DNA of 64,000 nucleotides, from IMG/VR virus record IMGVR_UViG_3300042892_000699. One strand, written 5' to 3'. A program made the position numbers and the translations under genes. This document shows positions 8,182 through 27,201 of this stretch, one piece after another. The stretch is from a virus. Taxonomy: Duplodnaviria > Caudoviricetes. Position 1 is the stretch's first letter, and every line of letters begins with the position of its first letter. The notes under the pieces are model-generated. The model made no database searches. It saw only the letters and a program-made list of their open reading frames with translations, and was not told the DNA's origin.

Positions 8182-8544
8182 ATGAAACTAGTAGAATTCT
8201 TCGGTAGGTCTATGGACCTCAACACTAACAAAAGAAAAGATCAAACTGATGAAAAATTTGACGATGATCTTTTCTGGTACATCGTTGACCACGATAAACT
8301 GCACAAAGACTACTTCTTTCCTATTGCTAAAAAACTTAAAACTCTAAAAGAGTGTGGCCCAGAAATGGTGCTGGAATTGTTTATGCCCATGGTGGAAAAA
8401 GGTTGCAAAGAATATTACGAGTACAAGGAAATGAAGGGCAAGTTAGGCAAAGTATTTCCCAAAGACCTACGTGAAGAAATGTGCAAGAGACTATACGATC
8501 ACTATCGTGAAGATATTAAAAAAGACAAATACAATCTAGGATAA
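8182..8544 (+). CDS. Hypothetical protein, possibly head-associated
   Basis: Clean ORF directly after a TAAATA motif; N-terminus MKLVEFF resembles a capsid-targeting leader. Confidence 0.5.
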   Translation: MKLVEFFGRSMDLNTNKRKDQTDEKFDDDLFWYIVDHDKLHKDYFFPIAKKLKTLKECGPEMVLELFMPMVEKGCKEYYEYKEMKGKLGKVFPKDLREEMCKRLYDHYREDIKKDKYNLG

Positions 8545-8548
8545 TTTA

Positions 8549-11500
8549 ATGCAGTTGTTCGACCTAATCAGAAATAAAAAACCATTGCTCGAAGGCGGCA
8601 ATGTATCAAGTCAAAGTCCAGGTTGGCAAGGTGCTGCTGATCAAGAAGCAGAAGAAATTGATCTAAAGATTCACGACCGTGATCACATGGTGGCTCAACT
8701 GCGAGAATTATTGTCTGCACAAAACGAATCATTTAAAGCAGCCTACGGCAAATATATTTGGGATCCAAAACTATTGGCATCGGGAAAGATGCTCAGTGGT
8801 AGCAGCTTACAATTCTTTGATGTTAAGGGAATCAATACACAGGACTTCTTAAACAAACTAAAGAAAACAAAAGTTGGCGACATCGACACGCAGATTGACC
8901 AGGATATGGGCGATGAAGTCACTGCTTGGTTAAAGAGTATTATTGGTAAGAAAGTTGGCAACGGCACATTCTTAGGATTTAACAGTTCGTTATCAAGCAT
9001 TTGGTTGCTAGATGATCCGCAGGTTCGTATTCAAGTTGATTATGAATTAGGTCCGTATGACGCTAAAACAAATGCACCAACTGAATGGTTTGCCTACAGT
9101 CATAGTAGTCACTATGATGACATGGCTGCTGGTATTAAAGGTGTATTCCACAAATATATCAACCGTGCTCTAACACATGCACAGTCCAGTGAAAAGTATG
9201 TAGCCCGAGTACTTAAGAAAAGTGTTAAGATTAGTGATGCTCCCGTTACAGACAGCGACTACAGTTTTGCAGTCAGCAGTTCTCAGGGCGGCGGCATGAG
9301 CATAAAGTATAAGCCATACATCGATCCTGCTACAGGACAGCATATGGAAAAAGACGGCATTCCTGTTATGCAACTGCTGGATCCAAAAGACCGCGACTAT
9401 ATTCAAAATTTAGACCAACAGTTCCAGATGAACTTCGGTCGTAAGCGTGGTGTTGCTGATCGAAACTTGCAAGGTAGCTTTGTAGGAACACTACAGCTAA
9501 TGAACAAGTCGTTTGAACCTGAACAAATTGAATCCGTAACTCGTGCATTCCTAGACATTCTATTTGGACCCGGAGCACAGATGATTACTAAAGATGATCC
9601 AGCTCGAGATCGTGATGTTAAGTTTGCCGCAGTAGATGCTATGTTGCTAGGCGGTGGAGGGGTTAAGCCTCTAAACTTACCAAATGCTCAAGGCCTAAGA
9701 CAAGAAGCAGTTAAGATGGCAATGGACTATGCAGACCAGTTCAATGCCAAACGAGGAAATGCACTCAGTACCGAAGTAGCAGAAGATGCCGCAGCAGAAG
9801 TAGCAGCAAAGCCAGACTATGCTCGCCAAGGTATCAAACACCTGTACAACAGACTGCCAGATGGTCGTGTAAGTACAGCAGAAATGAAGAATGCAGATTT
9901 CTTAGAAATTGCCAAGGCAATTGCAGACAATGGTGGCAAACTTGACGGTGTGCCTATCAGTTTGAAAGTAGACGGCGCAGGCATTCGATTCGGTAAAGAT
10001 CAAAGTGGTCGTCCGTTCTTCATGACCAGCAAAGTGACTACTCCATTGTATCAAGATGATGTAGGTTATTTTACCAGCTTTGGTCAAGAAAAAGGTCAGG
10101 ATGCAGAGACATTGGCAAGAACAAAGAATTATGACAATGCACTGGCATTGATTACCGGTAGCAAGTTTATACAATCACTACCTGCAGACACTATTGTACA
10201 AGCAGAAATGATGTATAATCCCATGGCACAACAAACTGACCAAGGACTAAAATTTGTCAATATTCCTTACGATCCTAAAAAGCTAGGCAAGCAGATGACA
10301 CTGGTGCCTTTTGTATTCAAACAATACAGCACAGGAGACGAAAGACCCGATGCTGACAAGATCAAAAAGCGTTTGTTAGCAGCCAGTGATAGCAACATTA
10401 AAATTGTCAGTAATAATCTAGAACAAAAAGGCATTAACGTCAGCAAGATTATTAATCCTATTCTAAACTTAGATCCTAAAGACAAAGCTAATAAGCCTGC
10501 GTTCGATCAAGCTAAACAAGCACTAAGCGATGCTATTATTAATAATCCTAAATTAGCAGGCAAAGATGCGCTAGGCGACAACATGGAAGGTGTTGTTGTT
10601 AATATGCCTAACGGTCAAATATTTAAAGTCACTAGTCAGCAGATGAAGTCGGCTATGGCTGCTAAAATGGCTCAACCGGGTGCAAAACGTCAAGGTCCCC
10701 TAAAGACCGCAGTGGTAGCAGTTGGTAGTTTTGCAGGACATCTAGGACACGAAGACTTGTTTAACGAAACTGTTAAGAAGGCCAACGAATTAGGCGGTGA
10801 TCCTTACCTGTTTATTGGCAATGCAGTGGGTGCAGACGATCCTATCCCAACAGACGTTAAGGTACAGACATGGCATAAACTATATCCGCAGTATGCCAAC
10901 AATATCGGTGCTGTAATGCAGGGTGGAAGTTTAATGCAAAAGGTCAAACACGAATTGATCAGTCCGCAGCCGGGCAAGCCTCCCAAGTATGACAACATTG
11001 TTATCATGGTAGGTGAAGATCGTAAAGACATGCCTATCGCAGGTGCGCTAATGAAGGCTGTTAATAAGTTTCCGGGCTACGAGCATGTTAAGGTCGGTTT
11101 GGAAACTATCCCAAGAACACGACCTATAAGTTTTACTAAACTACGCGATGTTCTAAAAAATCCCAATGCTACTCCGGAACAGCAGTATGCAGTATGGGCG
11201 CAGGGATTTAACGCACAACAATTAGGTAAAGATTGGATACTACATCTTATGGACATCTCAAGAAAAGGTATGGGCATTGTTCAACAGCCCGCAGCAGCAC
11301 CACAACCAGTACCGGTTGCAGAACAAAGATTATTTAACGCATTGATTAGAACACAGAAAACGCCAATGTTTGAAAATGCGCCGACCAGTCAAATGGTTAG
11401 AGACCTAATCAATCCACAAGGACGCGAAGCACAGAAGTATGCTAAGTTCGACAGTGATAGAGAACAGCGTAGAGCCAAGATGGAAAAGGGTGCATTAGCA

Positions 11501-12934
11501 GATCGTAATAGCCGCAAGTATTCTAGCGAGAAAGACGATTGGGGCAATTTAAAGAAAGAAGAATTCAATAGTGAGTACGATGACGAAGCAGGAATGGCGC
11601 AGAGCAATTTACGCACTATGGCTCGTGCGGTTGATGGCTTGTTAAAAACAATCAAGAACAACGACAACTTGCCAGAGTGGGGACAAGAAAAGATTGCCAA
11701 GGCTGAAATGATGTTGGTCAGCGTTTGGGATTATTTGTTAAGTCAAAAAGAATTGGGCATGGATCCTAAGGTTAACGAAAGTCGTGCTCTAGCAGGATTG
11801 AAACAGATTGTTGCAGAACTCAGTAATGAGAAGTTAGGACAGTATAAGAAGGCTGCTGGCGCACAGGCCAGTGCGGCTGACAAGGCAGGCAACACTAAGA
11901 AGGCTGACAAACGCTTCAGCGGCATTGTTAAAGCAACTAAGAAACAGTTTGCCAACGATGAGCAAGGTGTGGCGGAAGGCTTGAATGAATTTGCACCAGG
12001 CAACTTTGATGGCGGCGATGACGAAACTCCAGGTTCGTGGGACAACTTTATTAAAGCGTTTGATCCAGAAATTAGAAGAATGGGATTTGGTATGGACAAG
12101 CGCAGTTCGCACGATGCTAGAATTTATGCACACCCCGAAGCACAAAAAGGTATTATGGTTCGCCAACACCCAGAAAAAGACAATGTTTATTATAAACTGT
12201 TTCAATTCTTTAACAAAGGTGAAGATGAAGTTGGTTTGGCAGATTTGTCGCAAAACGGCGCTGCCAGTGTGTTAGTTAAAGTTGAAGATTTCTTAAACGG
12301 TGAGCAAGGTGTGGCAGAGGGTGCTCCAATTGTAGTAGCACAGGCTCCTATCCACATACGCAATCCTAAAAAGGCTCCACAACCATTTAGAAATAAAGGT
12401 GACATTGTTCCCGACACAAAGCCACCAAGTACTGAAAAGCGTGGAGTTAAAGGTCGTCCAGGCCAAAGACCTATGCCAAAGTATGATGAAGGCTTGGAAG
12501 AAGGATTTGGTTCTAAACTTGCAGGACTAGGTCTTGCCGGAGCAATGGCACTAGGGTCCGCTGGAGCAAACGCTAGAGTCTCAGGAGATCAAGATCCCAA
12601 TGTCAATCGTTTAACAGGCAAACCCAATGTAACACAGGTTGCTCCTAGCGATGTTAAATCAGCGGCATCTGCAGGATTTAATAAAGAGTGGTTGCAAAAA
12701 GCCGCTGATCCTAATAGAACTGGCCGTTATATGATCAGTGTCGAAAAGGCACAAGAACTTTTAAACAAGATGAATGCCGTTGACGAAGCTAAGAAAAAAG
12801 GTGCTGATGGTAAAGCCTGTTGGAAAAATTATCGCTACAACGGTACTGAGAACGGTAAAGACAAGTGTGTGCCAGTAGGTGAAGATGTTGAAAATATTAT
12901 GGGCGCACTGATCGAAAATCTTATTAGAAAATGA
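8549..12934 (+). CDS. Multidomain polyprotein-like internal head protein with Pol-beta-type, ligase-type and HxGH-type nucleotidyltransferase domains followed by short modules
   Basis: LSGSS...GDIDTQ...QVDYE; ISLKVDG...QAEMMY...EGVVV...FKV; VVAVGSFAGHLGH...SFTKLR; then small modules delimited by [LVI]xE and QGVAEG. Confidence 0.6.
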   Translation: MQLFDLIRNKKPLLEGGNVSSQSPGWQGAADQEAEEIDLKIHDRDHMVAQLRELLSAQNESFKAAYGKYIWDPKLLASGKMLSGSSLQFFDVKGINTQDFLNKLKKTKVGDIDTQIDQDMGDEVTAWLKSIIGKKVGNGTFLGFNSSLSSIWLLDDPQVRIQVDYELGPYDAKTNAPTEWFAYSHSSHYDDMAAGIKGVFHKYINRALTHAQSSEKYVARVLKKSVKISDAPVTDSDYSFAVSSSQGGGMSIKYKPYIDPATGQHMEKDGIPVMQLLDPKDRDYIQNLDQQFQMNFGRKRGVADRNLQGSFVGTLQLMNKSFEPEQIESVTRAFLDILFGPGAQMITKDDPARDRDVKFAAVDAMLLGGGGVKPLNLPNAQGLRQEAVKMAMDYADQFNAKRGNALSTEVAEDAAAEVAAKPDYARQGIKHLYNRLPDGRVSTAEMKNADFLEIAKAIADNGGKLDGVPISLKVDGAGIRFGKDQSGRPFFMTSKVTTPLYQDDVGYFTSFGQEKGQDAETLARTKNYDNALALITGSKFIQSLPADTIVQAEMMYNPMAQQTDQGLKFVNIPYDPKKLGKQMTLVPFVFKQYSTGDERPDADKIKKRLLAASDSNIKIVSNNLEQKGINVSKIINPILNLDPKDKANKPAFDQAKQALSDAIINNPKLAGKDALGDNMEGVVVNMPNGQIFKVTSQQMKSAMAAKMAQPGAKRQGPLKTAVVAVGSFAGHLGHEDLFNETVKKANELGGDPYLFIGNAVGADDPIPTDVKVQTWHKLYPQYANNIGAVMQGGSLMQKVKHELISPQPGKPPKYDNIVIMVGEDRKDMPIAGALMKAVNKFPGYEHVKVGLETIPRTRPISFTKLRDVLKNPNATPEQQYAVWAQGFNAQQLGKDWILHLMDISRKGMGIVQQPAAAPQPVPVAEQRLFNALIRTQKTPMFENAPTSQMVRDLINPQGREAQKYAKFDSDREQRRAKMEKGALADRNSRKYSSEKDDWGNLKKEEFNSEYDDEAGMAQSNLRTMARAVDGLLKTIKNNDNLPEWGQEKIAKAEMMLVSVWDYLLSQKELGMDPKVNESRALAGLKQIVAELSNEKLGQYKKAAGAQASAADKAGNTKKADKRFSGIVKATKKQFANDEQGVAEGLNEFAPGNFDGGDDETPGSWDNFIKAFDPEIRRMGFGMDKRSSHDARIYAHPEAQKGIMVRQHPEKDNVYYKLFQFFNKGEDEVGLADLSQNGAASVLVKVEDFLNGEQGVAEGAPIVVAQAPIHIRNPKKAPQPFRNKGDIVPDTKPPSTEKRGVKGRPGQRPMPKYDEGLEEGFGSKLAGLGLAGAMALGSAGANARVSGDQDPNVNRLTGKPNVTQVAPSDVKSAASAGFNKEWLQKAADPNRTGRYMISVEKAQELLNKMNAVDEAKKKGADGKACWKNYRYNGTENGKDKCVPVGEDVENIMGALIENLIRK

Positions 12935-13576: not shown

Positions 13577-15516
13577 ACAACGAATTTAAAAAATCAAAAA
13601 GCAATAACGAAACTCGCTATACATTAGAGTCAATGACAGCAGGTGCAACCGGTTCAGGTAGTGTTGCTACAGCACCGAGCTCGTTAGGCAAAGTCCAAAA
13701 GCGCGGAAATATCTTGGCACAAGAAGCAGGTAAAGACAAAGTTCCTGCAACTACTCCCCGTAATTTTGTTGCTAAGAATGCCAAGTCCAGTGGTGCAGGC
13801 GCACACAAGGATAAGAAAAAAGAACAAAAGCAGGGCGCTGCAAAACATAAAAAGCCCTATATGGAATCTCTACGCACAAAAATTGATCAACTAAAATCAA
13901 AGTTAGCAGAAGCAGGCATGCCATTTCGTGGAGTAGGTGGTGCATTCAATCGCGGCGATGATGAACGACACGACTTAGATCCAACAGAATGGTACATTGT
14001 CAAAGATGGCAAAATGTTCAAAACGTCTGTCTACCCTAATCAAGTACAGTTAGCAATGGCCCAAGGTTATAGTCGTACTAGAGATGAAGCCAAAGCAAAA
14101 GCAGGCAAGCAAGGTGCAGCGGAAGGCGTTAGAGATTTAGGATATGATGCACAATCTCTTATTATGAAACTACGCCGAGATGTAGAAGAAAAAAGATTAC
14201 AACCTACTCCACAAGCAGTATTAGCAGCCGCAAGAGAGTTAGCAGGTGATATGGAGTTTGCTCCTCAACTGTTAGTAAAACAAGTATTAGGGCAAGGTGT
14301 GGCGGAGGCAACAGGCGATGAGAGATTTGACAGCATGATGGGACAGATCACAGGCGGTGCTGGTGCCAGGCAAGGTGTAGATAATTTGAATAAGTCCCTC
14401 ACTGCAAGAACAGGCAGCGACCCCGAGACTGCATTGGCCAAATTTGGTCAGGAATTTATAAAATGGCTTGAAGATCTTTGCCGTGAGTTTGCCAAGCAAG
14501 GTGCAGATAGATTTAATAAATTAAAAAAATTAAGCGAATTCGAAGACGGTGGCGAAACCATGGCGCACTGGTTGATTGATGTTGCTAAACAGACCAAGAC
14601 CTCGGGTATTACACTGGCAGACATACAGGAATTTTCTAGCGAGTTTAATACCCATGGAATGTGGGCCTGGCAAATGTTCCCTATAGCATGGAGTCAGAAC
14701 GAATGGCAAGACTATAAAGATCAATGGACTGGTCCCAATGGTTACATAGCCAATCTGAGACATAGTCCTGAGCAAGGTGTGGCGGAAGGCTCAGGGGCAA
14801 ATAAAACATACCTAGCAATGGCATATCTAAAAGCAGTAGTCATGGCTCCTACTGGAACACCAGAGAATGAAAGAATAAGAAATTGGCAAGAGAAGCTAGA
14901 AGACGAATTTGATATTGAAATGGACACCGCTACTCTTGCTCAAATGCTGCCACAATTTGATAGTATGCTACAGGCAGGCAAACTTGATAAATTACAAAAC
15001 CGAATGGCTTCTCGTGGCGAACTTGAAATAGGCGAGTCTAATCAAGGTGTGGCGGAAGGCGTTGAGGACAGAACAAGTTATCAAGTTGCTAAAATTCTAT
15101 CAAATCGTGGAATCAAATACGATCCTGCACAAGAAAATGAATTAATCAATGCAATAGGCATGGTACTGGTAAAAGAATTAAACATGAGTCCAAAGCAGGC
15201 AAGGAATTTGATCAGTTATGATGAAGACTTTGTTTCCGACACAATGGGCGAGTTGAGAGGTATGGAACAGTCAGTATCCGAAGTTGATGTATATATGGAA
15301 AGTCTTGCCCACTCATTGCAACAGGTCCTGAGTGAAAAAGCAGTGAGCAAGAAGCAACAAAAGTTTATGGGCATGGTTCATGCTGCACAGAAAGGTGAAA
15401 AGCCTGCCAGCAAAGAAGTTGCCAAGACAGCCAAGGACATGGGCAAGAAAGATGCCAGGGACTTTGCATCAACTAAGCACAAAGGTCTTCCTGAAAAGAA
15501 GAAATCAAAAAAGTAA
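13573..15516 (+). CDS. Modular polyprotein-like internal head protein with four QG(V/A)AE(G/A) linkers
   Basis: Lys-rich basic modules; LES/LAE/VAE/LSE candidate cleavage motifs; four copies of the 18-bp repeat in frame. Confidence 0.6.
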   Translation: MNNEFKKSKSNNETRYTLESMTAGATGSGSVATAPSSLGKVQKRGNILAQEAGKDKVPATTPRNFVAKNAKSSGAGAHKDKKKEQKQGAAKHKKPYMESLRTKIDQLKSKLAEAGMPFRGVGGAFNRGDDERHDLDPTEWYIVKDGKMFKTSVYPNQVQLAMAQGYSRTRDEAKAKAGKQGAAEGVRDLGYDAQSLIMKLRRDVEEKRLQPTPQAVLAAARELAGDMEFAPQLLVKQVLGQGVAEATGDERFDSMMGQITGGAGARQGVDNLNKSLTARTGSDPETALAKFGQEFIKWLEDLCREFAKQGADRFNKLKKLSEFEDGGETMAHWLIDVAKQTKTSGITLADIQEFSSEFNTHGMWAWQMFPIAWSQNEWQDYKDQWTGPNGYIANLRHSPEQGVAEGSGANKTYLAMAYLKAVVMAPTGTPENERIRNWQEKLEDEFDIEMDTATLAQMLPQFDSMLQAGKLDKLQNRMASRGELEIGESNQGVAEGVEDRTSYQVAKILSNRGIKYDPAQENELINAIGMVLVKELNMSPKQARNLISYDEDFVSDTMGELRGMEQSVSEVDVYMESLAHSLQQVLSEKAVSKKQQKFMGMVHAAQKGEKPASKEVAKTAKDMGKKDARDFASTKHKGLPEKKKSKK

Positions 15517-16978: not shown

Positions 16979-17030
16979 GATCAGCCATAACTGATCACAA
17001 AGAAGGTTGCCGGCCATAAGCGGTAAGGAG
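16979..17030 (+). promoter_or_regulatory. Twin RNA hairpins in the DNA polymerase leader (candidate translational operator)
   Basis: GATCAG-CCATAA-CTGATC (16979-16996) and TTGCCG-GCCATAAG-CGGTAA (17007-17026); the second runs into the AAGGAG SD. Confidence 0.6.
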
Positions 17031-17036
17031 AACTAT

Positions 17037-19709
17037 ATGAGCTACGTCGATGCCATGTGGGATCGAGACAAGGACATTGTGCATGTCGTTGAGCGTGATC
17101 CGAAGAAAGGCAGAATCTTTCAGGAGTTTCCTGCAAGATACACATTTTATTACCCCGACCAAAGGGGCAAATACAAGTCAATATACGGTGAAAACCTAAG
17201 CAAAGTTGTTACTAGATCCTATAAGGATTTTCAGAAAGAACAACGGATTCACAGCAGTCACAAGCTATACGAATCTGATATCAATACAGTATTCAAAACT
17301 CTAGAAGAAAACTATCTCAATCACGAACCGCCTAAACTAAATGTGGCGTTCTTCGACATTGAGGTGGACTTCGATCCTGAAAGAGGCTACAGCACCCCCG
17401 AGGATGCTTTCATGCCTATTACATCGATCGCTGTTCACCTACAATGGTTAGATACACTGGTCTGCTTTGCTGTTCCCCCAAAGACACTGACAATGGAGCA
17501 GGCAACGGAACTGGTTAAGGACTTTCCTAATACACATCTGTTTGAAACTGAAGCAGAGATGTTAGATGCGTTCTTAGATCTGATTCAAGATGCTGACATT
17601 CTCAGTGGCTGGAACAGTGAAGGTTATGATATTCCATACACCGTTAACAGAGTTATTAAAGCACTGAGCAAAGAAGACACTCGTAGATTCTGTCTGTGGG
17701 GTCAATTTCCCAAGAAGAGAGAGTACGAAAAATATGGAAAAGCGGCTGTTACTTATGATCTGGTTGGTCGTGTTCATCTGGACAGTCTCGAGCTGTACCG
17801 CAAATACACATATGAAGAGCGACACACTTACCGACTGGATGCCATTGGAGAAATGGAAGTAGGCGAGAGCAAGACTCACTATGAAGGTACACTTGATCAG
17901 TTATACAACAATGACTTTCGTAAGTTCATTGAATACAACAGACAGGATACTGCACTGTTAGACAAGTTGGATAAGAAACTAAAGTTTATCGATCTTGCTA
18001 ACACACTGGCACACGAATGTACGGTGCTATTGCAGACCACAATGGGCGCGGTTGCTGTAACTGAACAGGCTATTGTAAACGAAGCTCACCACCGTGGACT
18101 TATTGTGCCTAATCGTGCCAAGCGCGATGAGGATGCAAACAATCAGGCAGCAGGTGCTTATGTTGCATATCCTAAAAAAGGTATCCACGACTGGATTGGA
18201 TCTATTGACATTAACTCATTGTATCCGTCAGCTATTCGTGCGCTCAACATGGGTCCAGAAACTATCATCGGTCAGTTACGTCAGGACAGGACAGATCAAC
18301 ATATCGATGAACAAATGATGGTTCATAAAAAATCATTTGCGGCGGCTTGGGAAGGTATGTTTGGTAGCCTAGAGTACGAAGCAGTTATGCGACAGGACCG
18401 TGCATTTGAAATCACAGTTGATTGGGAAAACGATCAAAGTGATATCATGAGTGCAGCCGAAGCATATAAATTAATCTTTGACAGTAATCAACCTTGGATG
18501 TTAAGCGCCAACGGCACTATCTTTACCTATGAACATGAAGGCATTATTCCCGGACTGTTAAAGCGTTGGTATGCTGAACGTAAAGACATGCAGAAGAAGC
18601 TCAAGGCAGCTATTGAAGCAGGTAACAAGATTGAAGAAGAATACTGGGACAAGCGACAGTTGGTCAAGAAGATTAACTTGAACAGTTTGTATGGTGCTAT
18701 TCTTAATGCAGGTTGCAGATTCTTCGACAAGCGTATTGGTCAGTCAACTACTCTAGTAGGTCGCCAGATTGCCAAGCACATGGCTGGTAAAGTCAATGAA
18801 ATGATTACCGGTGAGTTTGATCACGTAGGTAAGAGTATTATCTACGGTGATACTGACTCGTGCTACTTCTCAGCTTACAATACGCTAAAGACTGACATTA
18901 ACAAGAAGCTGATCCCTTGGGATAGAGATGTTGTTATTCAGTTGTATGATCAAATTGCCGAAGGCGTAAATGCAACATTCCCACAGTTCATGTTGGATGC
19001 ATTTCACTGCCCAAAGAGTCGAGGCGAAGTTATCAAAGGTGGTCGAGAAATTGTTGCGGTTAAAGGCCTGTTCATTACCAAGAAGCGTTATGCAGTATTG
19101 TATTACGATAAAGACGGTAAGAGACAGGACACAGACGGCAAGCCAGGTAAGATCAAAGCTATGGGCCTGGATCTCAAGCGTAGTGATACTCCGGAATTTA
19201 TGCAGAAGTTTCTAGAAGAAGTTCTGACCAAAGTACTAAATGGTGCAGAGGAACAAGAGATTTTGGAAATGATCAGTGCATTCCGAACTGAGTTTAAGGC
19301 CCGTCCAGGTTGGGAGAAGGGTAGTCCCAAACGAGCTAACAACATCACAGAGTATCAAGCCAAGGAAGCTAAACAAGGCAAGGCTAATATGCCAGGGCAT
19401 GTCCGTGCTGCTATTAACTGGAATACGCTAAAACGCATGAACGGTGACAAATACTCAATGGGCATTGTTGACGGCATGAAGGTCATTGTTTGTAAAGTTA
19501 AAGACAATCCATTGGGATACACATCCATTGCTTATCCGGTCGATGAGATGCGATTACCTAAATGGTTCCAAGACCTGCCATTCGATCACAGCGAAATGGA
19601 AACTGCTATCATTAACAACAAACTGGACAACCTCATCGGTGTGCTGGATTGGGATTTAGAATCAACTACCCAAGACAATACCTTTGGCAAATTATTTTCC
19701 TTTGATTGA
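17037..19709 (+). CDS. polB: Family B DNA polymerase (T4 gp43-like) with 3'-5' exonuclease
   Basis: FFDIEVD, GWNSEGYDIPY, YNRQD exonuclease motifs; DINSLYPS, KINLNSLYG, YGDTDS polymerase motifs. Start placed at ATG 17037 after AAGGAG. Confidence 0.95.
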   Translation: MSYVDAMWDRDKDIVHVVERDPKKGRIFQEFPARYTFYYPDQRGKYKSIYGENLSKVVTRSYKDFQKEQRIHSSHKLYESDINTVFKTLEENYLNHEPPKLNVAFFDIEVDFDPERGYSTPEDAFMPITSIAVHLQWLDTLVCFAVPPKTLTMEQATELVKDFPNTHLFETEAEMLDAFLDLIQDADILSGWNSEGYDIPYTVNRVIKALSKEDTRRFCLWGQFPKKREYEKYGKAAVTYDLVGRVHLDSLELYRKYTYEERHTYRLDAIGEMEVGESKTHYEGTLDQLYNNDFRKFIEYNRQDTALLDKLDKKLKFIDLANTLAHECTVLLQTTMGAVAVTEQAIVNEAHHRGLIVPNRAKRDEDANNQAAGAYVAYPKKGIHDWIGSIDINSLYPSAIRALNMGPETIIGQLRQDRTDQHIDEQMMVHKKSFAAAWEGMFGSLEYEAVMRQDRAFEITVDWENDQSDIMSAAEAYKLIFDSNQPWMLSANGTIFTYEHEGIIPGLLKRWYAERKDMQKKLKAAIEAGNKIEEEYWDKRQLVKKINLNSLYGAILNAGCRFFDKRIGQSTTLVGRQIAKHMAGKVNEMITGEFDHVGKSIIYGDTDSCYFSAYNTLKTDINKKLIPWDRDVVIQLYDQIAEGVNATFPQFMLDAFHCPKSRGEVIKGGREIVAVKGLFITKKRYAVLYYDKDGKRQDTDGKPGKIKAMGLDLKRSDTPEFMQKFLEEVLTKVLNGAEEQEILEMISAFRTEFKARPGWEKGSPKRANNITEYQAKEAKQGKANMPGHVRAAINWNTLKRMNGDKYSMGIVDGMKVIVCKVKDNPLGYTSIAYPVDEMRLPKWFQDLPFDHSEMETAIINNKLDNLIGVLDWDLESTTQDNTFGKLFSFD

Positions 19710-20499: not shown

Positions 20500-20867
20500 T
20501 AAAAGGAATAGCTCATTCAGGTCGATATCTCCAGGTACAAGGAGGTAGTCCAATGAATCCGTACATTTCTTCCGGTGGGCAATCTGCGGGAATGTTGCGC
20601 TATAATACAAATATCAATACCATAGAAGTATACGACGGGCAAGTTTGGAAAGAAGTATCTTCAAACTTTGCCAATGTAGCATTAACTAGTGAGGCAGAAG
20701 CATTACTTGACTGGGCACGAAAAAAGCGTGACGAAGAATTGCAGCTCGAAGTATTGGCTAAAGAACACCCTGCTATTAACATTGCCTTGGGTAATTTAAA
20801 GAAAGCCAAGATACAACTAGATGCTACAATAATATTAAGTAAAGAACATGACGAAACAACAAGTTAA
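20496..20867 (+). CDS. Hypothetical protein
   Basis: Clean ORF overlapping both neighbours. Confidence 0.5.
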   Translation: MIKGIAHSGRYLQVQGGSPMNPYISSGGQSAGMLRYNTNINTIEVYDGQVWKEVSSNFANVALTSEAEALLDWARKKRDEELQLEVLAKEHPAINIALGNLKKAKIQLDATIILSKEHDETTS

Positions 20868-22506
20868 CCTAACACCATTACAGAAAGACTATGCAGTCTA
20901 TTTGCCTGCAATTAGTAGTTTCTACAGTACCTATGTTGCTAAACAACGACTAGGTGAATTCGTACCAACAGATCGTATTCCTGCAGGTTTTGATCGTGGT
21001 ATCGAAGGTATGAACTTTTTAAATCCTGAACAAGGATACTTTACTTACAAATACGGTCTGTACTCTGCGGGTCATGCACAATTAGATCTTACTAAGAGTT
21101 TAGAACAAGAGTCCATGATTCAACAGCGTGATCGTAATAACACTATGATCTTAGGCGACTCAGGTGGATACCAGATTGGTAAGGGTGTTCTTAAGTTTGA
21201 CTGGTTAGACTTTGAAGGCAAGGAAGCTACTAAGACTCGTCAGAAGATTCTCGAGTGGCTCGAAGTCACAGCCGATTGGTCAATGATGCTAGACGTTCCA
21301 ACATGGGCATGTGATCACATTCACAGTCCTAAAACTGGACTAAAGACATTTGATGACTGCTTAGATAAGACTCGATACAATAACGATTACTTTTTGATGA
21401 ACAGAATGGGTCAAACTAAATGGCTCAACGTTCTGCAAGGTAGTGATTGGGACACTGCTGAAAAGTGGTATGCAGGTGTAAAAGAATTTAGCGACCCGGC
21501 AGGTAAGTATGCAGGGCGTGAAGCAGAAGGTTGGGCCTTTGGTGGTGCTAACATGTGCAAGATGGATATTACTCTCAAGCGTTTAATGACACTTAGAGAA
21601 GATGGTTTGCTGAAGGGCAAAAACTGGATCCACTTCTTGGGTACAGCGCAACTTGACTGGAGTTGCTACTTAACTTTAATTCAAAGACAAATCAGGAAAC
21701 ACATCAATGAAGAAATTACCATATCTTTTGACTGCGCCTCACCGTTCATTGCAACAGCGCACGGACTTGTCTACACAAACGCAGTCCACACGCCAAAAAG
21801 GTGGAGTGTTATTATGGACAAGGCACCAGATAACAAAGCACTATCAGGATCAGATATCCCGTTCCCTTTCGAATCGTCAATCGGTCGCAGACTAACAATG
21901 GCTGACATTGCCTACTACGATTTAGGCGTTCGTAAAACAGACGAAGAATTAGGTTTTGGTCCACGTGGTGGAAAAATTGAATTTAACCATTTAGAACCAG
22001 AACACTACCATGTTGTACCTAGACTTAACAAATTAGGTAAGATTCCAAATAGAACAAGTTGGGATAGCTTTGCCTATGCATTGATGATGGGACATAATGT
22101 CGAATGTCATATTGTTGCTGTTCAACGTGCTCAACAATTAATGGACATTGAGATTGCTAAATCTAAAGACAAGCTGACTTGGAAGCAATGGAAGAAAGTC
22201 AAGGGACAGGATATGAGCGATGAGTTTAGTGATTGGGTTCCCCGTAATATCTTATACTTCAACAGCTTTGTTGAAGACTTATTTAATACTGCTACTAAAG
22301 CAGATGCATTTGCAATGATCGAACAAGCTGGTCCATTCCTGCGTAGTTTAGAAGGTGCTCGACTACAAGGCGGTCCTGCTCAAAACAAGTTTAATAACTT
22401 GTTCGAAATTGAAGAAGTTACTAAGGTTGAAGAAATTGATCTTGCTAACCCAGATGACGACGAACTACGAAAACTTGAAGAAGGCACATTAGGAGATATA
22501 GAATGA
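20848..22506 (+). CDS. dpdA: tRNA-guanine transglycosylase-family protein, probably the DNA 7-deazaguanine insertase DpdA
   Basis: TGT motifs LGDSGGYQ, MMLDVP, VLQG, AFGG, IHFLG, SFDCASP; lies in a cluster with QueD-like and QueE genes. Confidence 0.75.
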   Translation: MTKQQVNLTPLQKDYAVYLPAISSFYSTYVAKQRLGEFVPTDRIPAGFDRGIEGMNFLNPEQGYFTYKYGLYSAGHAQLDLTKSLEQESMIQQRDRNNTMILGDSGGYQIGKGVLKFDWLDFEGKEATKTRQKILEWLEVTADWSMMLDVPTWACDHIHSPKTGLKTFDDCLDKTRYNNDYFLMNRMGQTKWLNVLQGSDWDTAEKWYAGVKEFSDPAGKYAGREAEGWAFGGANMCKMDITLKRLMTLREDGLLKGKNWIHFLGTAQLDWSCYLTLIQRQIRKHINEEITISFDCASPFIATAHGLVYTNAVHTPKRWSVIMDKAPDNKALSGSDIPFPFESSIGRRLTMADIAYYDLGVRKTDEELGFGPRGGKIEFNHLEPEHYHVVPRLNKLGKIPNRTSWDSFAYALMMGHNVECHIVAVQRAQQLMDIEIAKSKDKLTWKQWKKVKGQDMSDEFSDWVPRNILYFNSFVEDLFNTATKADAFAMIEQAGPFLRSLEGARLQGGPAQNKFNNLFEIEEVTKVEEIDLANPDDDELRKLEEGTLGDIE

Positions 22507-22706
22507 GACAAGAAATTATTAGCGTATTAAAACACCATTTTAAAGCACACATTTTCAAGCACAAAATGAATGTAGACATTATGTTGAGCAATCCCATGGC
22601 ACTACATGACCATACTGACTTAATGGATGCTATTGAAAAAGAAGTAGCATTGATTGCTGAATATCAAGACAAGTTGGACATAATGGAAAGTTATTTTAAG
22701 GAATAA
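22503..22706 (+). CDS. Hypothetical protein
   Basis: AGGAG SD, overlapping start/stop. Confidence 0.55.
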   Translation: MRQEIISVLKHHFKAHIFKHKMNVDIMLSNPMALHDHTDLMDAIEKEVALIAEYQDKLDIMESYFKE

Positions 22707-22707
22707 T

Positions 22708-22992
22708 ATGGCAACAGGTAAAAAGAAAACAGACATTATTATGTCTGCCGAAATATCAGAGTCTATGGAAATGCCCGGTACTATTGGCAGTGCTAGATTA
22801 ACATTTCCAAATGATCCCACTGTGGTAAAAGGCAGTCATTTAACTGTTACTACATTTCCAGACGGTAAAACTGTTTTAGAATGGGACGATGAGGCATTAC
22901 TCAGAGATGTCCAAAAAGCCTTGACAGAGTACGAGAATTCTGTTAAAGTTAATACTACTAAAACTAAACGTAAGAAGAAAAATGAAGCGTGA
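22708..22992 (+). CDS. Hypothetical protein
   Basis: AAGGA SD, clean ORF. Confidence 0.5.
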   Translation: MATGKKKTDIIMSAEISESMEMPGTIGSARLTFPNDPTVVKGSHLTVTTFPDGKTVLEWDDEALLRDVQKALTEYENSVKVNTTKTKRKKKNEA

Positions 22993-23494
22993 TTACGATA
23001 CAGGTATTAGTGAAGATGTAATTTTCTTTACTGGTACTGAAGTTGAGCACACTCCTGCATACGGCATGAAAACATTGTTTGTTACAGGAGTTCAATCTAG
23101 CGAGCATATTGCACTAAACTTGCAAGGTTGCGAGCATATTTTCTTTGGCGCAAATCATAGTTATAATCCACAAACTTACGAAGAACACAAAGTCTGGGAA
23201 GAAATGATTATGTTCTTCCTTGATAAAGAATACCTGTGTTCATTGGATATTCCAATTCACCAAGTAGAAGAATTCCACGAAGGCGGGCTTTGCGAGCGTG
23301 ATAATTTTATTCCACAAATTCGTGTACCTATTCCTTACATTCGTCTTTGGAACTATAACACTATGTTAAAGATTGACGACAAAGATTTTAAGGCAACTAA
23401 TCCCGGTGTATGGTCCCACAGTCTACACACACTAATGGATCGTAGTAAGTTTACAGACTGGGCACAATATAAAAACGACAAGGTAATAAAATGA
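22982..23494 (+). CDS. Hypothetical protein in the deazaguanine cluster
   Basis: 170-aa enzyme-like alpha/beta pattern (FFTGTEVEHT...HIFFGANHSY...KIDD). Confidence 0.55.
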   Translation: MKRDYDTGISEDVIFFTGTEVEHTPAYGMKTLFVTGVQSSEHIALNLQGCEHIFFGANHSYNPQTYEEHKVWEEMIMFFLDKEYLCSLDIPIHQVEEFHEGGLCERDNFIPQIRVPIPYIRLWNYNTMLKIDDKDFKATNPGVWSHSLHTLMDRSKFTDWAQYKNDKVIK

Positions 23495-23664
23495 TTAACT
23501 CTAAAGTTACAAAACAAGCAAATCAACAAAGTTCAGAAGAAAAATTATTTAAATTGCTCGAAAGCATTGACTGGAAGTTATGGGAAATCTATAATATGAT
23601 GAAAGATAATCTTCCTGAAAAATCGGCACCCGCTAAAAAAACCACAAAGGTTAAAGCACAGTAA
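23491..23664 (+). CDS. Small hypothetical protein (57 aa, not in the ORF track)
   Basis: ATG 23491 overlaps the upstream stop; MINSKVTKQ...KVKAQ ends in TAATG overlapping the next start. Confidence 0.55.
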   Translation: MINSKVTKQANQQSSEEKLFKLLESIDWKLWEIYNMMKDNLPEKSAPAKKTTKVKAQ

Positions 23665-24065
23665 TGAATCAAGAACTTAATATGATTTGGGTCACCTTTC
23701 GTAAGGAGGGTGTTCATATGTATCCGGCTGCGGCTACAGACCCCAAACTTGCCACAGGCAACATGTACGATGTTAGTTTCCTCGGTACTCCGCACCGTCA
23801 CATTTTCCATTTTAAAATCTATATTCAAGTATTTCACGATGATCGTGATATTGAGTTTATTCAGTTTAAGCGTTGGTTAGAGCACTGCTATGCAGATGGT
23901 ACACTCGAACTTAACCACAAATCCTGTGAAATGATAAGCCGTGATCTTCATGGAACCATTTCGGCAAGATATCCAGGTCGTGAGATCTGGATTGACGTAA
24001 GTGAAGACGGCGAGAATGGCTGCTTCATTAAATTTCCTCAACCCTTTAATACTACACAAAGGTAA
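23664..24065 (+). CDS. QueD/PTPS-like T-fold protein with DpdL-type motif
   Basis: LGTPHRHIF (LxxxHRHxF) in place of the QueD C...HGH motif; RDIEF and SCE motifs. Confidence 0.7.
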   Translation: MNQELNMIWVTFRKEGVHMYPAAATDPKLATGNMYDVSFLGTPHRHIFHFKIYIQVFHDDRDIEFIQFKRWLEHCYADGTLELNHKSCEMISRDLHGTISARYPGREIWIDVSEDGENGCFIKFPQPFNTTQR

Positions 24066-24071
24066 AACATT

Positions 24072-24314
24072 ATGGCACAACCTGCCTACATTCAGAAAAC
24101 TCTTCGTATGAAACCCGAAGTTGAAAAGATCTTTGATGATCTCGATGCTTGGTTAGATCATTGCAGATTTAACCTCCTTCCTTATAACCCTTCAGACTTG
24201 TATAGGTCACAGGAATACAGGTATTTTTCTCGTCCTCCTTATCAGGGCGATCGTAAAAACTACCGCAAGGATTATAAGCCTAGAGGCCAAAACAATGACA
24301 ATTTTTCTCGTTGA
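24072..24314 (+). CDS. Hypothetical protein
   Basis: Clean ORF with SD-like AAGG. Confidence 0.5.
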   Translation: MAQPAYIQKTLRMKPEVEKIFDDLDAWLDHCRFNLLPYNPSDLYRSQEYRYFSRPPYQGDRKNYRKDYKPRGQNNDNFSR

Positions 24315-25368: not shown

Positions 25369-25823
25369 AATGGTTTCTAAACTTTTTAGAACGTGTTGGT
25401 CGCAAAAGAATTGTAATGGATAGACAAAATAATGAACCTTACCTCGAACGCTACTACATTTTTCTTAAAGACAGAAAGCATTTCCCCTTTAATGTGTTCA
25501 TTCACAAGTTTCTTAAGTCAGACCCCGATGATGTACATGATCATCCATGGTCTTACGCTACACTTATCTTAAAAGGCGGTTATTATGAATGGACTCCTAA
25601 CTTTGATTCACAAGGTGCCAAGATCAGTGAAACACGGCATTGGCGTGGTCCTGGGCACTGCCGTATTTGCCCTGCTAATAGCTATCACCGTGTTGAGCTT
25701 AAAGAAGGAACAGACTGTTGGACAATGTTCATGCCTGGTCCACAAAAACGAGAATGGGGTTTTCTTGTAAAGAATAAGTGGATCCATAATACAGAATATC
25801 TAGAAGAAAAGGCAGTAAAATGA
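25365..25823 (+). CDS. Cupin-fold protein
   Basis: HKF...HDHPW...ILKGGYYE...YHRVEL...WTMF metal-binding cupin pattern. Confidence 0.65.
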   Translation: MKWFLNFLERVGRKRIVMDRQNNEPYLERYYIFLKDRKHFPFNVFIHKFLKSDPDDVHDHPWSYATLILKGGYYEWTPNFDSQGAKISETRHWRGPGHCRICPANSYHRVELKEGTDCWTMFMPGPQKREWGFLVKNKWIHNTEYLEEKAVK

Positions 25824-25996
25824 AAATTGGAAGTGTCTGGCAATCGGCTGATAGAACAACATTTATTATCAAAAATATAGAAATTATCAACGAGCAAACT
25901 TGGATCTTTTATGTAAACTCAAAGACACAACAAAAATACTCATGCCTAAAAGATGCATTTACTAGCAGATTCCAAGAACAACTCAATAACGGATAA
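25820..25996 (+). CDS. Small hypothetical protein (58 aa, not in the ORF track)
   Basis: ATG overlaps the upstream TGA; MKIGSVWQSAD...QEQLNNG; fills the gap exactly. Confidence 0.55.
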   Translation: MKIGSVWQSADRTTFIIKNIEIINEQTWIFYVNSKTQQKYSCLKDAFTSRFQEQLNNG

Positions 25997-26001
25997 TATA
26001 A

Positions 26002-27125: not shown

Positions 27126-27143
27126 TTATTTTTACCTTTATAG

Positions 27144-27171: not shown

Positions 27172-27201
27172 TACTTATCACCTCTCTTAAAGGTCTATTA
27201 A

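What the first reader, a model, noticed from the sequence alone, without database searches (positions are those of the whole stretch)
8549..11270. Three unrelated nucleotidyltransferase folds fused in one probable virion-packaged protein
Seen in tandem in the 1461-aa ORF: (a) a Pol-beta-superfamily signature LSGSS...GDIDTQ...QVDYE (about 8795-9045); (b) ligase/capping-type motifs KVDG (9965-9976), AEMMY, EGVVV (10586) and FKV; (c) a Rossmann HxGH motif HLGH (10739-10750) with SFTKLR. Established: these are three independent NMP-transfer chemistries, found in CD-NTases/tailing enzymes, RNA/DNA ligases and NMNAT/cytidylyltransferases. Inference: the protein is cut at [LVI]xE sites and injected as a nucleotide-handling kit. 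Possible roles are RNA repair against anticodon nucleases, NAD+ regeneration against NADase defences, or decoy signal synthesis.
Basis: partly seen in the sequence, partly recalled or inferred. Interest (0 to 1): 0.75.

Follow-up and report, generated by a model that had tools for sequence, protein, structure and literature searches.

The report
Capsid-targeted three-nucleotidyltransferase phage polyprotein
An uncultured giant T4-related phage encodes one 1461-residue protein joining a polymerase-X-like enzyme, an RNA-ligase-like enzyme and an NMNAT-like enzyme behind a T4-style head-loading tag, so it is probably packed into the capsid, cut at conserved sites and injected with the DNA; its substrates are unknown.

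Summary
Observation confirmed. ORF 8549-12934 (+) holds three different nucleotidyltransferase folds, each with its catalytic motifs invariant across relatives and confident AlphaFold2 models:
- D1 (aa 16-412): Pol-beta superfamily, closest to polymerase-X palm and thumb and to TUTases.
- D2 (about 430-706): covalent KxDG nucleotidyltransferase, closest to RNA ligases.
- D3 (about 718-909): HxGH Rossmann enzyme, closest to NMNAT, PPAT and FAD synthetase.

Interpretation partly supported. In 143 of 143 full-length relatives a variable leader ends in (L/I/V)-x-E directly before an invariant GGN, and leaderless relatives start MGGN. The same motif sits in the D1/D2 linker in 145 of 149 and after D3 in 116 of 149. 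It is never found between D2 and D3. The expected products are therefore D1, a fused D2-D3 enzyme and small C-terminal cassettes, not three separate enzymes. A D3 homologue with the same kind of leader was detected in purified cyanophage S-SZBM1 virions (PMC9146016).

Neither packaging nor cutting has been measured for this protein, and its substrates are unknown. I favour nucleic-acid end repair with adenylyl transfer or NAD+ supply. This scan found the same family earlier on at least six other genomes, with the same reading. It is a new variant of T4-type capsid-targeted cargo.

The parts
8549..12934 (+). Whole ORF, 1461 aa (P0001): cargo polyprotein
   Evidence: 776 or more long relatives at 50-97% identity over aa 1-940
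8549..8593 (+). Leader aa 1-15, ending LLE15 before the invariant GGN: capsid-targeting-like propeptide with predicted prohead-protease site
   Evidence: h-x-E directly before GGN in 143 of 143 relatives, with variable leader sequence and length; leaderless relatives start MGGN
8594..9784 (+). D1, aa 16-412: Pol-beta-superfamily nucleotidyltransferase with polymerase-X-like palm and thumb plus a C-terminal helical part. Catalytic G84 S85 (8798-8803), D111/D113 (8879-8887), D164/E166 (9038-9046)
9776..9784 (+). VAE410-412 in the D1/D2 linker: predicted cleavage site
   Evidence: [LIV]xE in this otherwise variable linker in 145 of 149 relatives; the split-gene form D1 | D2-D3 in L010 breaks at the same place
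9836..10666 (+). D2, aa about 430-706: RNA-ligase-like covalent nucleotidyltransferase. Motif I K473-G476 (9965-9976), III E553 (10205-10207), IV E680 G681 (10586-10591), V K693 (10625-10627)
10700..11275 (+). D3, aa about 718-909: HxGH Rossmann nucleotidylyltransferase of NMNAT/PPAT/FAD-synthetase type. HLGH 731-734 (10739-10750), ISFTKLR 860-866 (11126-11146)
11315..11323 (+). VAE923-925 after D3: predicted cleavage site
   Evidence: 116 of 149 relatives
11324..12931 (+). C-terminal cassette array, aa 926-1461. Predicted cuts after VAE1090 (11810-11818), QGVAE1143 (11963-11977) and QGVAE1257 (12305-12319). No Pfam family found. Close relatives carry lysozyme, LysM, PG-binding, cell-wall hydrolase or sigma-70 region 4 modules here
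8182..8544 (+). Upstream 120-aa ORF (P0154), linked: its homologue is fused in front of the h-x-E GGN site in relatives P0008 and P0015
13573..15516 (+). Neighbouring 647-aa cassette polyprotein (P0152) with four QG(V/A)AE sites

Best explanation
The gene encodes a capsid-targeted cargo polyprotein of a T4-related giant phage. Inferred steps: the 15-residue leader takes the protein into the prohead core, and the T4-type (S77) prohead protease then cuts after (L/I/V)-x-E. This removes the leader at LLE15 and exposes an N-terminal GGN. It releases D1, a polymerase-X-like nucleotidyltransferase (aa 16-412), at VAE412. It releases one two-domain enzyme (aa 413-925, an RNA-ligase-like adenylyltransferase fused to an NMNAT-like HxGH nucleotidyltransferase) at VAE925. 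It cuts the tail into small cassettes at VAE and QGVAE sites. The pieces are ejected with the DNA. Shown here: the three folds with intact, invariant catalytic motifs; the position and conservation of the sites; and the gene linkage of D1, D2 and D3 in split forms. Most speculative step: the enzymes act together on nucleic-acid ends early in infection. D1 would add or fill in nucleotides at 3' ends and D2 would seal. D3 would make an adenylylated cofactor, most likely NAD+ from NMN, that keeps such reactions or the cell's NAD+ pool running under host defence.
For: Folds and catalytic residues:
- Searches show the invariant motifs, and searches give pLDDT 92.1 and 94.5.
- D1 scores VIA Z 6-7 against TUT7, OAS2, Pol mu, Trf4 and Pol beta.
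- D1 aligns 160 residues, TM 0.67 by the match, with a 173-aa polymerase-X palm-thumb cluster.
- D2 scores Z 9.3 to Naegleria RNA ligase, 8.5 to T4 Rnl2 and 8.0 to REL1, and Foldseek E about 1e-4 to archaeal RNA ligase and T4 Rnl1.
- D3 scores Z 12.2, 12.0 and 12.0 to NadM and archaeal NMNAT and 11.4 to PPAT.

Processing:
- P0001 has only five [VIL][AST]E tripeptides, all VAE (0.45 expected). All lie outside the three folds.
- In relatives the sites pile up at query positions 10-19, 400-420 and 910-945.
- h-x-E precedes GGN in 143 of 143 relatives. The D1/D2 linker has a site in 145 of 149, the stretch after D3 in 116 of 149, and the D2/D3 junction in 0 of 149. Site density is 2.97 per 100 aa in linkers against 0.55 inside folds.
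- Linker sequences and lengths vary while the site is kept.
- Leaderless D1 proteins begin MGGN.
- QGVAE occurs in the largest number of distinct sequence contexts among the 300 most recurrent pentamers in relatives.

Packaging:
- The leader resembles the T4 capsid-targeting sequence, whose processing residues are 8 and 10. Alt is trimmed at both ends by gp21 (PMC9026906).
- Peptidase_S77 is present in 4 of 4 isolate phages that carry homologues.
- S-SZBM1_140 was found in CsCl-purified virions (PMC9146016). It is a D3 homologue (hhalign probability 96%, E 4.5e-9). It has the leader MRFRQFIIE|A and a TVAE site after the domain.
- NMNAT-like proteins were reported in other cyanophage virion proteomes (PMC9602691; PMC10665884).
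- C-terminal modules in close relatives are peptidoglycan hydrolases, peptidoglycan-binding domains and a sigma-70 region 4, in most cases with VAE-type sites nearby.

Functional linkage:
- D1, D2 and a cytidylyltransferase are adjacent separate genes in Xanthomonas phage X1.
- L010 has D1 | D2-D3 as adjacent genes.
Against: - There are no proteomic, N-terminal or expression data for this protein or this phage.
- The prohead protease, capsid and portal genes are not in the window, and no whole genome is held. Whether this phage's protease cuts VAE or QGVAE could not be checked.
- The gene lies between a tail-fibre gene with metabolic genes and the DNA polymerase, not among head genes.
- The T4 late-promoter consensus is absent nearby: one TATAAATA in 64 kb against 6.5 expected.
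- Leaderless homologues in Vibrio and Xanthomonas phages sit among early or replication genes. The enzymes therefore also work without packaging.
- The 149 relatives are not independent, since many are over 80% identical.
- D1's structural matches are only middling (Z below 8), and no helix-hairpin-helix DNA-binding domain was found.
- D3 cannot be told apart from PPAT or FMN adenylyltransferase (Z values tied; the only sequence hits are to FAD synthetase).
- No end-healing kinase or phosphatase is present, which an RNA repair pathway of the T4 type would need.
Confidence: 0.6

Rival explanations
1. It is a cytoplasmic, unpackaged multifunctional enzyme used during phage DNA replication, repair or nucleotide metabolism. 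On this reading the h-x-E motifs are linker features, or sites for another protease, and the leader is not a targeting signal.
For: Leaderless D1 (MGGN) and separate D2 and cytidylyltransferase genes lie next to primase-helicase in Xanthomonas phage X1, and among early-type genes near a tRNA nucleotidyltransferase in Vibrio phage SRILMA. The window gene lies upstream of the DNA polymerase, not among head genes.
Against: h-x-E precedes GGN in 143 of 143 relatives although the leaders vary. Sites are enriched about five-fold in linkers and are absent from the D2/D3 junction. The C-terminal cassettes include peptidoglycan hydrolases. A D3 homologue with the same leader was found in virions.
Confidence: 0.2
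2. The main role is NAD+ supply. D3 is an NMN adenylyltransferase delivered with the DNA to rebuild NAD+ against NAD+-depleting defences, and D1 and D2 are accessory.
For: D3's best structural matches are NadM-type and archaeal NMNATs (Z 12.2, 12.0, 12.0). Cyanophage homologues are annotated NMNAT and found in virions, and their authors proposed NAD+ regulation (PMC9602691). Phage NAD+ reconstitution pathways are known (Osterman et al. 2024, seen as a reference).
Against: PPAT, NadD and FAD synthetase score within about 1-1.5 Z units, and the only sequence matches are to FAD synthetase. NMNAT alone cannot rebuild NAD+ from ADP-ribose and nicotinamide, and the ORFs scanned with Pfam or PHROGs include no Nampt, though several smaller ORFs were not scanned. 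This reading does not explain why D3 is always fused to a ligase-like domain (0 of 149 with a site between them).
Confidence: 0.2
3. It is an injected tRNA/RNA repair kit against anticodon nucleases or 3'-end-trimming toxins. D1 would rebuild RNA 3' ends and D2 would reseal cleaved tRNA, as T4 Rnl1 does with Pnkp.
For: D2 resembles RNA ligases more than DNA ligases. D1 resembles terminal uridylyl- and adenylyltransferases.
Against: No kinase, phosphatase or 2H phosphoesterase domain is present to heal 2',3'-cyclic phosphate and 5'-OH ends. The tRNA-repair ligases Rnl1 and Trl1 score lower (Z 7.4) than the nick-sealing Rnl5 and Rnl2 (9.3, 8.5).
Confidence: 0.2
4. D1 is a cGAS/CD-NTase-like synthase that makes decoy or interfering nucleotide signals.
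For: OAS2 (Z 7.0) and a cGAS-like receptor (Z 5.7) appear among D1's structural matches.
Against: These matches are tied with, or below, TUTases and polymerase X. The ESM Atlas fold search returns polymerase-X palm-thumb clusters and no CD-NTase family. The constant partnership with a ligase-like domain points to polynucleotide ends.
Confidence: 0.05

Closest known systems
Phage T4 internal head proteins IPI-III and the packaged ADP-ribosyltransferase Alt (capsid-targeting sequence, gp21 processing, ejection)
   Same: A short N-terminal leader ends in (L/I)-x-E and is removed by a T4-type prohead protease. Alt is an enzyme trimmed at both ends and injected with the DNA (PMC9026906). Isolate phages that carry homologues of this family have the S77 protease.
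   Different: The cargo is a chain of three nucleotidyltransferase folds plus cassettes, with internal cut sites, rather than one small protein or one ADP-ribosyltransferase. Packaging has not been measured here.
Virion-associated NMNAT-like or 'cytidylyltransferase' proteins of T4-like cyanophages (S-SZBM1_140, S-SCSM1 ORF91, S-CBWM1, S-CREM2 ORF154)
   Same: S-SZBM1_140 is homologous to D3 (hhalign probability 96%). It has a CTS-like leader and a TVAE site after the domain. It was detected in purified virions (PMC9146016). The other three are virion-proteome reports that I did not compare with D3 (PMC9602691, PMC10665884).
   Different: Those are single-enzyme proteins of about 290-360 aa, with the partner gene (DUF6267) separate. 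Here D3 is fused to an RNA-ligase-like domain and sits downstream of a polymerase-X-like domain.
Polyvalent proteins of phages and conjugative elements (Iyer et al. 2017, PMC5512222)
   Same: Several disparate catalytic domains sit in one polypeptide that is predicted to be injected with the DNA in the earliest phase of infection. Peptidoglycan-attacking modules are part of the repertoire.
   Different: The Pol-beta NTases described there are minimal firmicute versions fused to ArdC-N. The paper mentions RNA ligases only as separate phage enzymes, never linked to polyvalent proteins. No MuF, zincin peptidase or ArdC hub domain is present here. Processing here would be by the prohead protease.
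Nick-sealing RNA ligases (Naegleria Rnl5, T4 Rnl2, trypanosome REL1) and T4 Rnl1
   Same: D2 has the nucleotidyltransferase fold and motifs I, III, IIIa, IV and V with the catalytic lysine.
   Different: No sequence-level match to any ligase family in Pfam, NCBIfam or the PDB. D2 lacks their accessory N- or C-terminal domains. An HxGH nucleotidyltransferase follows instead.
Family X DNA polymerases (Pol beta, mu, lambda; ASFV Pol X) and bacterial LigD-type end joining
   Same: D1 aligns with palm and thumb: 159 of 176 residues of ASFV Pol X and TM 0.67 on a 173-aa Pol X cluster. It has the GS, DxD and third-carboxylate motifs. Its pairing with a ligase recalls gap filling plus sealing.
   Different: The scores are weak (Z 5.7-6.9). 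There is a 25-residue insertion between GS and DxD, no helix-hairpin-helix or 8-kDa domain, and an extra beta-rich insert and helical tail. Polymerase activity is untested.
NadM and archaeal NMN adenylyltransferases and phage NAD+ reconstitution (NARP2)
   Same: D3 gives their best structural match (Z about 12) and has the HxGH and ISxTxxR motifs.
   Different: The substrate cannot be assigned. No Nudix domain is present. No Nampt partner was found among the ORFs scanned.

Membership tests
Pol-beta-superfamily nucleotidyltransferases (D1) | hG[GS] motif, then [DE]x[DE] on the next strand, then a third carboxylate on a later strand | tested here: met
   G84 S85, D111 D113 and D164/E166 are invariant in 43 sequences. 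In the model GS precedes helix 84-90, DxD lies on strand 111-117 and D164 on strand 160-168. The GS-to-DxD spacing of 25 residues is unusually long.
Pol-beta-superfamily nucleotidyltransferases (D1) | Alpha-beta-alpha-beta-alpha-beta core fold | tested here: met
   VIA Z 7.1 to TUT7, 7.0 to OAS2, 6.9 to Pol mu, 6.7 to Trf4 and 6.5 to Pol beta over model residues about 38-177 or 22-312. Foldseek gives probability up to 0.96 but E about 0.02. The scores are middling, but among matches to the catalytic core (residues about 22-315) the superfamily is consistent.
Family X DNA polymerases (D1) | Palm plus thumb architecture | tested here: inconclusive
   The ESM Atlas fold search aligns 160 residues, TM 0.67 by the match, with a Pol X palm-thumb cluster. 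ASFV Pol X aligns over 159 of 176 residues at Z 5.7. Language-model neighbours carry DNA_pol_B_palm or thumb in only 17-19% of members.
Family X DNA polymerases (D1) | Helix-hairpin-helix or 8-kDa DNA-binding domains | tested here: not met
   No HHH_5, HHH_8 or related Pfam match in P0001 at E up to 1. D1 is therefore not filed as a Pol X member, only as Pol-X-like.
Covalent nucleotidyltransferases: ATP-dependent ligases and capping enzymes (D2) | Motifs I (KxDG), III, IIIa, IV (EG) and V (K) in order | tested here: met
   K473 D475 G476, E553, F569/Y574, E680 G681 and K693 are invariant in 40 sequences. Motifs IV and V lie on adjacent strands, 252-256 and 262-266, of the model.
Covalent nucleotidyltransferases: ATP-dependent ligases and capping enzymes (D2) | Ligase nucleotidyltransferase fold | tested here: met
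   Z 9.3 to Naegleria RNA ligase (188 aligned), 8.5 to T4 Rnl2, 8.0 to REL1, 7.4 to T4 Rnl1 and 7.3 to a DNA ligase. Foldseek E 9e-5 to 1e-3 to RNA ligases.
A named RNA ligase family (Rnl1 to Rnl5) (D2) | Family-specific accessory domain and sequence membership | tested here: inconclusive
   No Pfam, NCBIfam or PDB sequence match. Structural scores for the different Rnl families lie within 2 Z units.
HxGH (HIGH) nucleotidylyltransferases (D3) | HxGH after strand 1, ISxTxxR at a late helix, Rossmann-like fold | tested here: met
   H731 G733 H734 and R866 are invariant and T863 nearly so. The model shows strand 291-297, then the motif, then helix 303-318, with ISFTKLR at helix 433-441. Z is 10-12 to NMNAT, PPAT, NadD and FAD synthetase. 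Sequence support: phrog_3041 at E 4e-9 and FAD_syn in 22 of 35 members.
NMN adenylyltransferase (D3) | Substrate specificity for NMN or NaMN | not testable with these tools
   The top structural matches are NMNATs, but they are tied with PPAT. This needs an enzyme assay.
T4-type capsid-targeted, prohead-protease-processed head cargo | N-terminal leader ending in (L/I/V)-x-E | tested here: met
   LLE15 precedes GGN. The pattern holds in 143 of 143 relatives, with P3 = L 68, I 64, V 11. Leaderless forms start MGGN.
T4-type capsid-targeted, prohead-protease-processed head cargo | S77 (gp21-type) prohead protease in the same genome | not testable with these tools
   No whole genome is held and there is none in the window. 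It is present in 4 of 4 isolate phages with homologues. Four metagenomic fragments gave nothing.
T4-type capsid-targeted, prohead-protease-processed head cargo | Protein physically present and processed in virions | not testable with these tools
   Only indirect: the D3 homologue S-SZBM1_140 was detected in purified virions (PMC9146016).
Polyvalent proteins (Iyer et al. 2017) | Two or more disparate catalytic domains in one phage polypeptide, with hub domains (MuF, zincin peptidase, ArdC-N) or virion-gene context | tested here: inconclusive
   Three disparate catalytic domains are present. No hub domain was found. A tail-fibre gene lies upstream in the same tightly packed gene run.

The most novel reading that the evidence does not exclude
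The phage delivers, inside its capsid, a ready-made nucleic-acid break-repair machine. A polymerase-X-like enzyme fills or tails 3' ends, possibly with ribonucleotides. A nick-sealing RNA-ligase-type enzyme, permanently fused to an NMNAT-like adenylyltransferase, seals them. Together they would mend restriction, CRISPR or nicking damage to the incoming genome, or damage to host RNAs, before any phage gene is expressed, and independently of host NAD+ and dNTP pools. This would be a virion-borne counterpart of LigD-type end joining.
Probability: 0.15. Interest if true: 0.85.

Novelty: new variant of a known kind. Interest (0 to 1): 0.6.

Why it matters
Injected phage proteins act before any phage gene is transcribed, so they decide the first minutes of the contest with host defence. 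The enzymes named as packaged in the papers read here are mainly an ADP-ribosyltransferase (T4 Alt), RNA polymerases, DNA-protecting proteins and wall hydrolases. A widespread family in uncultured giant T4-related phages (over 2500 relatives, none characterised) appears to load a polymerase-X-like enzyme and a ligase-NMNAT-like enzyme into the head. That would add nucleic-acid repair or cofactor synthesis to the injected repertoire. It would also give a function to the NMNAT-like proteins that keep turning up in cyanophage virion proteomes. D1 and D2 have no Pfam family, so they are also new enzyme families to characterise. The cut-site grammar gives precise, testable predictions of the mature N-termini.

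Tried and rejected
- Sequence searches on D1 and D2 found no family. Pfam and NCBIfam gave nothing significant. Profile searches against PDB sequences gave nothing for D1 and only chance hits for D2.
- Megablast of the gene against isolate phages found nothing.
- No whole genome is held for the window.
- Peptidase_S77 was not found in four metagenomic relatives' contigs, which are only 10-26% complete. It was not found in the window by tblastn.
- I tested a link between D1 and 7-deazaguanine DNA modification, suggested by the radical-SAM neighbour in Campylobacter phage CP21 and by an earlier scan note of a 7-deazaguanine cluster in this window. The TGT/DpdA family was found in 0 of 4 isolate phages with homologues, so the idea was dropped.
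- The T4 late-promoter consensus TATAAATA occurs once in 64 kb, against 6.5 expected. The sigma-70 and terminator scans were at background. Expression timing therefore stays unknown.
- A complex prediction of D1 with D2-D3 gave no verdict (score 0.00, controls not run). It says nothing either way.
- hhalign of the annotated X1 cytidylyltransferase against the D3 profile was not significant. That gene is linked by position and superfamily annotation only.
- Xanthomonas X1 gene 2 and the S-SZBM1 genes 139 and 142 could not be assigned.
Full report
**Setting.** The window is a piece of an uncultured T4-related giant myophage.
- Its family-B DNA polymerase (17007-19709) is closest, at 43-51% identity, to those of jumbo phages such as Sinorhizobium phage Phosso, Agrobacterium phage Atu_ph07 and Cronobacter phage GAP32.
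- The window also holds a T4-type baseplate wedge gene, a 4732-aa ORF, a tail-fibre gene with an Mtd_N domain, a 2OG-Fe(II) oxygenase and a fatty-acid desaturase.
- The exact protein is on record on a 207,946-base contig, and relatives sit on contigs of 245-393 kb.
- No whole genome is held. Megablast finds no isolate relative of the gene.

The ORF runs from 8549 to 12934 on the + strand and encodes 1461 aa.
- An exhaustive HMMER search found 2527 relatives. They include many 900-2100-aa proteins covering aa 1-915 at 45-97% identity, and stand-alone D1, D2, D3 and D2+D3 proteins.
- In domain alignments the motif residues are invariant: G84 S85, D111 D113, D164 E166 in D1; K473 D475 G476, E553, E680 G681, K693 in D2; H731 G733 H734 and R866 in D3.
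- The AlphaFold2 models are confident (pLDDT 92.1 for aa 1-420 and 94.5 for aa 430-935). They place each motif on the canonical element of its fold.

**What the three folds are.**
- D1 matches only Pol-beta-superfamily enzymes, at middling scores. VIA gives Z 7.1 for TUT7, 7.0 for OAS2, 6.9 for Pol mu and 6.5 for Pol beta, and aligns 159 of 176 residues of ASFV Pol X. Foldseek gives E about 0.02.
- A fold search of the ESM Atlas aligns 160 residues of D1 with a 173-aa polymerase-X palm-thumb cluster (TM 0.67 by the match). Its other named neighbour is DUF6267. Language-model neighbours are viral nucleotidyltransferases.
- No helix-hairpin-helix domain is present, so D1 is polymerase-X-like, not a member of that family.
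- D2 matches RNA ligases: Naegleria Rnl5 at Z 9.3, T4 Rnl2 at 8.5, REL1 at 8.0 and T4 Rnl1 at 7.4. Foldseek gives E about 1e-4 to archaeal RNA ligase and Rnl1. D2 has no sequence-level family.
- D3 matches NadM and archaeal NMNAT (Z about 12), PPAT (11.4), NadD and FAD synthetase. Weak sequence hits go to FAD synthetase and to the PHROG family named cytidyltransferase. Its substrate cannot be assigned.

**The cut-site grammar.**
- P0001 has only five [VIL][AST]E tripeptides. All are VAE (0.45 expected) and all lie outside the three folds: at 410-412, 923-925, 1088-1090, 1141-1143 and 1255-1257.
- In 148 full-length relatives such sites pile up at three places of the core: query positions 10-19, 400-420 and 910-945.
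- With the broader (L/I/V)-x-E motif in 149 full-length sequences, every one of the 143 with at least three residues before the invariant GGN has the motif directly before it.
- 145 of 149 have the motif in the D1/D2 linker and 116 of 149 have it after D3. None has it at the D2/D3 junction.
- Site density is 2.97 per 100 aa in linkers against 0.55 inside folds.
- The linkers vary in length and sequence while the site is kept.
- Stand-alone D1 proteins either carry such a leader or begin MGGN. The mature enzyme therefore seems to start at GGN in every case.
- A split form, with D1 and D2-D3 as adjacent genes (L010), matches the predicted products.
- These relatives are not independent samples, but they reach down to about 40% identity.

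**Is it packaged?** The leader looks like the T4 capsid-targeting sequence. That sequence is 10 residues long, with processing determinants at positions 8 and 10. T4 Alt is an injected enzyme trimmed by gp21 at both ends (PMC9026906).
- All four isolate phages that carry homologues encode a Peptidase_S77 prohead protease.
- The strongest outside evidence is proteomic. The cytidylyltransferase S-SZBM1_140 was detected in CsCl-purified cyanophage virions (PMC9146016).
- I showed that S-SZBM1_140 is a D3 homologue (hhalign probability 96%, E 4.5e-9). It begins MRFRQFIIE|A and has a TVAE site after the domain.
- NMNAT-like proteins were also reported in the virion proteomes of S-SCSM1 and S-CBWM1, and a cytidylyltransferase in that of S-CREM2 (PMC9602691; PMC10665884).
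- In close relatives of P0001 the variable C-terminal part carries LysM plus lysozyme, PG_binding plus a cell-wall hydrolase, or sigma-70 region 4. Most of these have VAE-type sites nearby. This fits cargo that acts at entry.
- Against this, nothing has been measured for this protein, and its own phage's protease and head genes are out of reach.
- The gene lies between tail-fibre and metabolic genes and the polymerase. No late promoter could be recognised.

**The C-terminal cassettes.**
- QGVAE occurs in the largest number of distinct sequence contexts among the 300 most recurrent pentamers in relatives (32 contexts).
- It occurs twice in P0001, and the neighbouring 647-aa ORF P0152 has four QG(V/A)AE sites. 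The DNA encoding them is almost identical.
- An earlier follow-up on this genome (e1-5409847) had already described these linkers as cassette joints and probable protease sites. I reached the same motif independently before reading it.

**Functional linkage and wider family.**
- In Xanthomonas phage X1, D1, an unassigned KxDG-containing gene, D2 and a cytidylyltransferase are four adjacent genes.
- Other architectures join D2 to DUF6267, D2 to CTP_transf_like, and CTP_transf_like to D1. D1 is also joined to Amidoligase_2. The 2100-aa forms add a second NTP_transf_2, Amidoligase_2 and DUF6934.
- In cyanophage S-SZBM1 the virion cytidylyltransferase sits next to a DUF6267 gene.
- D1, D2, D3 and DUF6267 thus form one recurring gene set.

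**How it most likely works.**
- Shown: three intact nucleotidyltransferase folds, the conserved sites, and the linkage of the parts.
- Inferred: head loading by the leader, cutting into D1, D2-D3 and cassettes, and ejection with the DNA.
- Speculative: D1 extends or fills 3' ends and D2 seals them. This resembles polymerase X with a ligase, or LigD-type end joining. D3 would make NAD+ or another adenylylated cofactor.
- Rivals are a purely cytoplasmic enzyme, NAD+ supply as the main role, tRNA repair (weakened by the lack of any end-healing domain), and decoy signal synthesis (little support).

**Comparison and novelty.**
- The concept is known from T4 CTS cargo and from polyvalent proteins (PMC5512222).
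- Virion-borne NMNAT-like proteins have been noticed in cyanophage proteomes.
- I did not find the fused polymerase-X-like, RNA-ligase-like and HxGH core, or its cut-site grammar, in the papers read or in Pfam.
- The scan itself found this family before on at least six other genomes, with the same reading.
- I class it as a new variant of a known kind.

Noticed in passing
window 11963-11980, 12305-12322, 14110-14127, 14293-14310, 14773-14790, 15043-15060: The QG(V/A)AEG linkers of P0001 and the neighbouring P0152 are encoded by nearly the same 18 bases (CAAGGTGTGGCGGAAGGC and close variants). This suggests recombination at the linkers. An earlier finding, e1-5409847, already covers it.
   Followed up: partly
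window 8182-8544 (+): The 120-aa upstream ORF ends ...RLYDHYREDIKKDKYNLG. In relatives P0008 and P0015 the homologous segment is fused in frame ahead of the h-x-E GGN site, so gene fission and fusion happen at the cut site.
   Followed up: partly
L018 7478-8671 (-) (cyanophage S-SZBM1 gene 141); P0101 aa 300-650: DUF6267 carries a KWDG motif that aligns weakly with D2's motif I. It is fused to D2 in a jumbo-phage protein, lies next to the virion cytidylyltransferase in S-SZBM1, and is the nearest named fold to D1 in the ESM Atlas (TM 0.46). Its fold and role are unresolved.
   Followed up: partly
L001 4987-5991 (+) (Xanthomonas phage X1): A 334-aa gene between the D1 and D2 homologues contains GKKVDG but matches neither profile nor any Pfam family.
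   Followed up: partly
L007 9995-16402 (+); P0030: Relatives of about 2100 aa extend the three-enzyme core with a second NTP_transf_2 domain, Amidoligase_2 and DUF6934.
   Followed up: partly
window 12320-12931 (+); L012 4029-5867 (+): The last cassette has a small Cys-containing module (CWKNY...CVPVGE). It recurs in a 613-aa protein of Synechococcus phage BUCT-ZZ01 encoded two genes downstream of the large terminase. A second module, aa 1076-1147, is 67% identical to part of that protein.
   Followed up: partly
window 26274-27125 (-), 27202-28050 (+), 28519-29511 (+), 35081-35965 (+): Two weak radical-SAM ORFs, a 5'-3' exonuclease and a thymidylate synthase. Another first-reader note places a 7-deazaguanine modification cluster at 20848-28050.
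   Followed up: no
window 40692-42359 (-): A 555-aa ORF matches phrog_9158 (unknown function, E 2e-105) and, more weakly, a PHROG family labelled protease (E 4e-25). It is not the S77 prohead protease.
   Followed up: no
whole window: The T4 late-promoter consensus TATAAATA occurs once (33436), against 6.5 expected from shuffles. This phage may use a different late promoter.
   Followed up: partly
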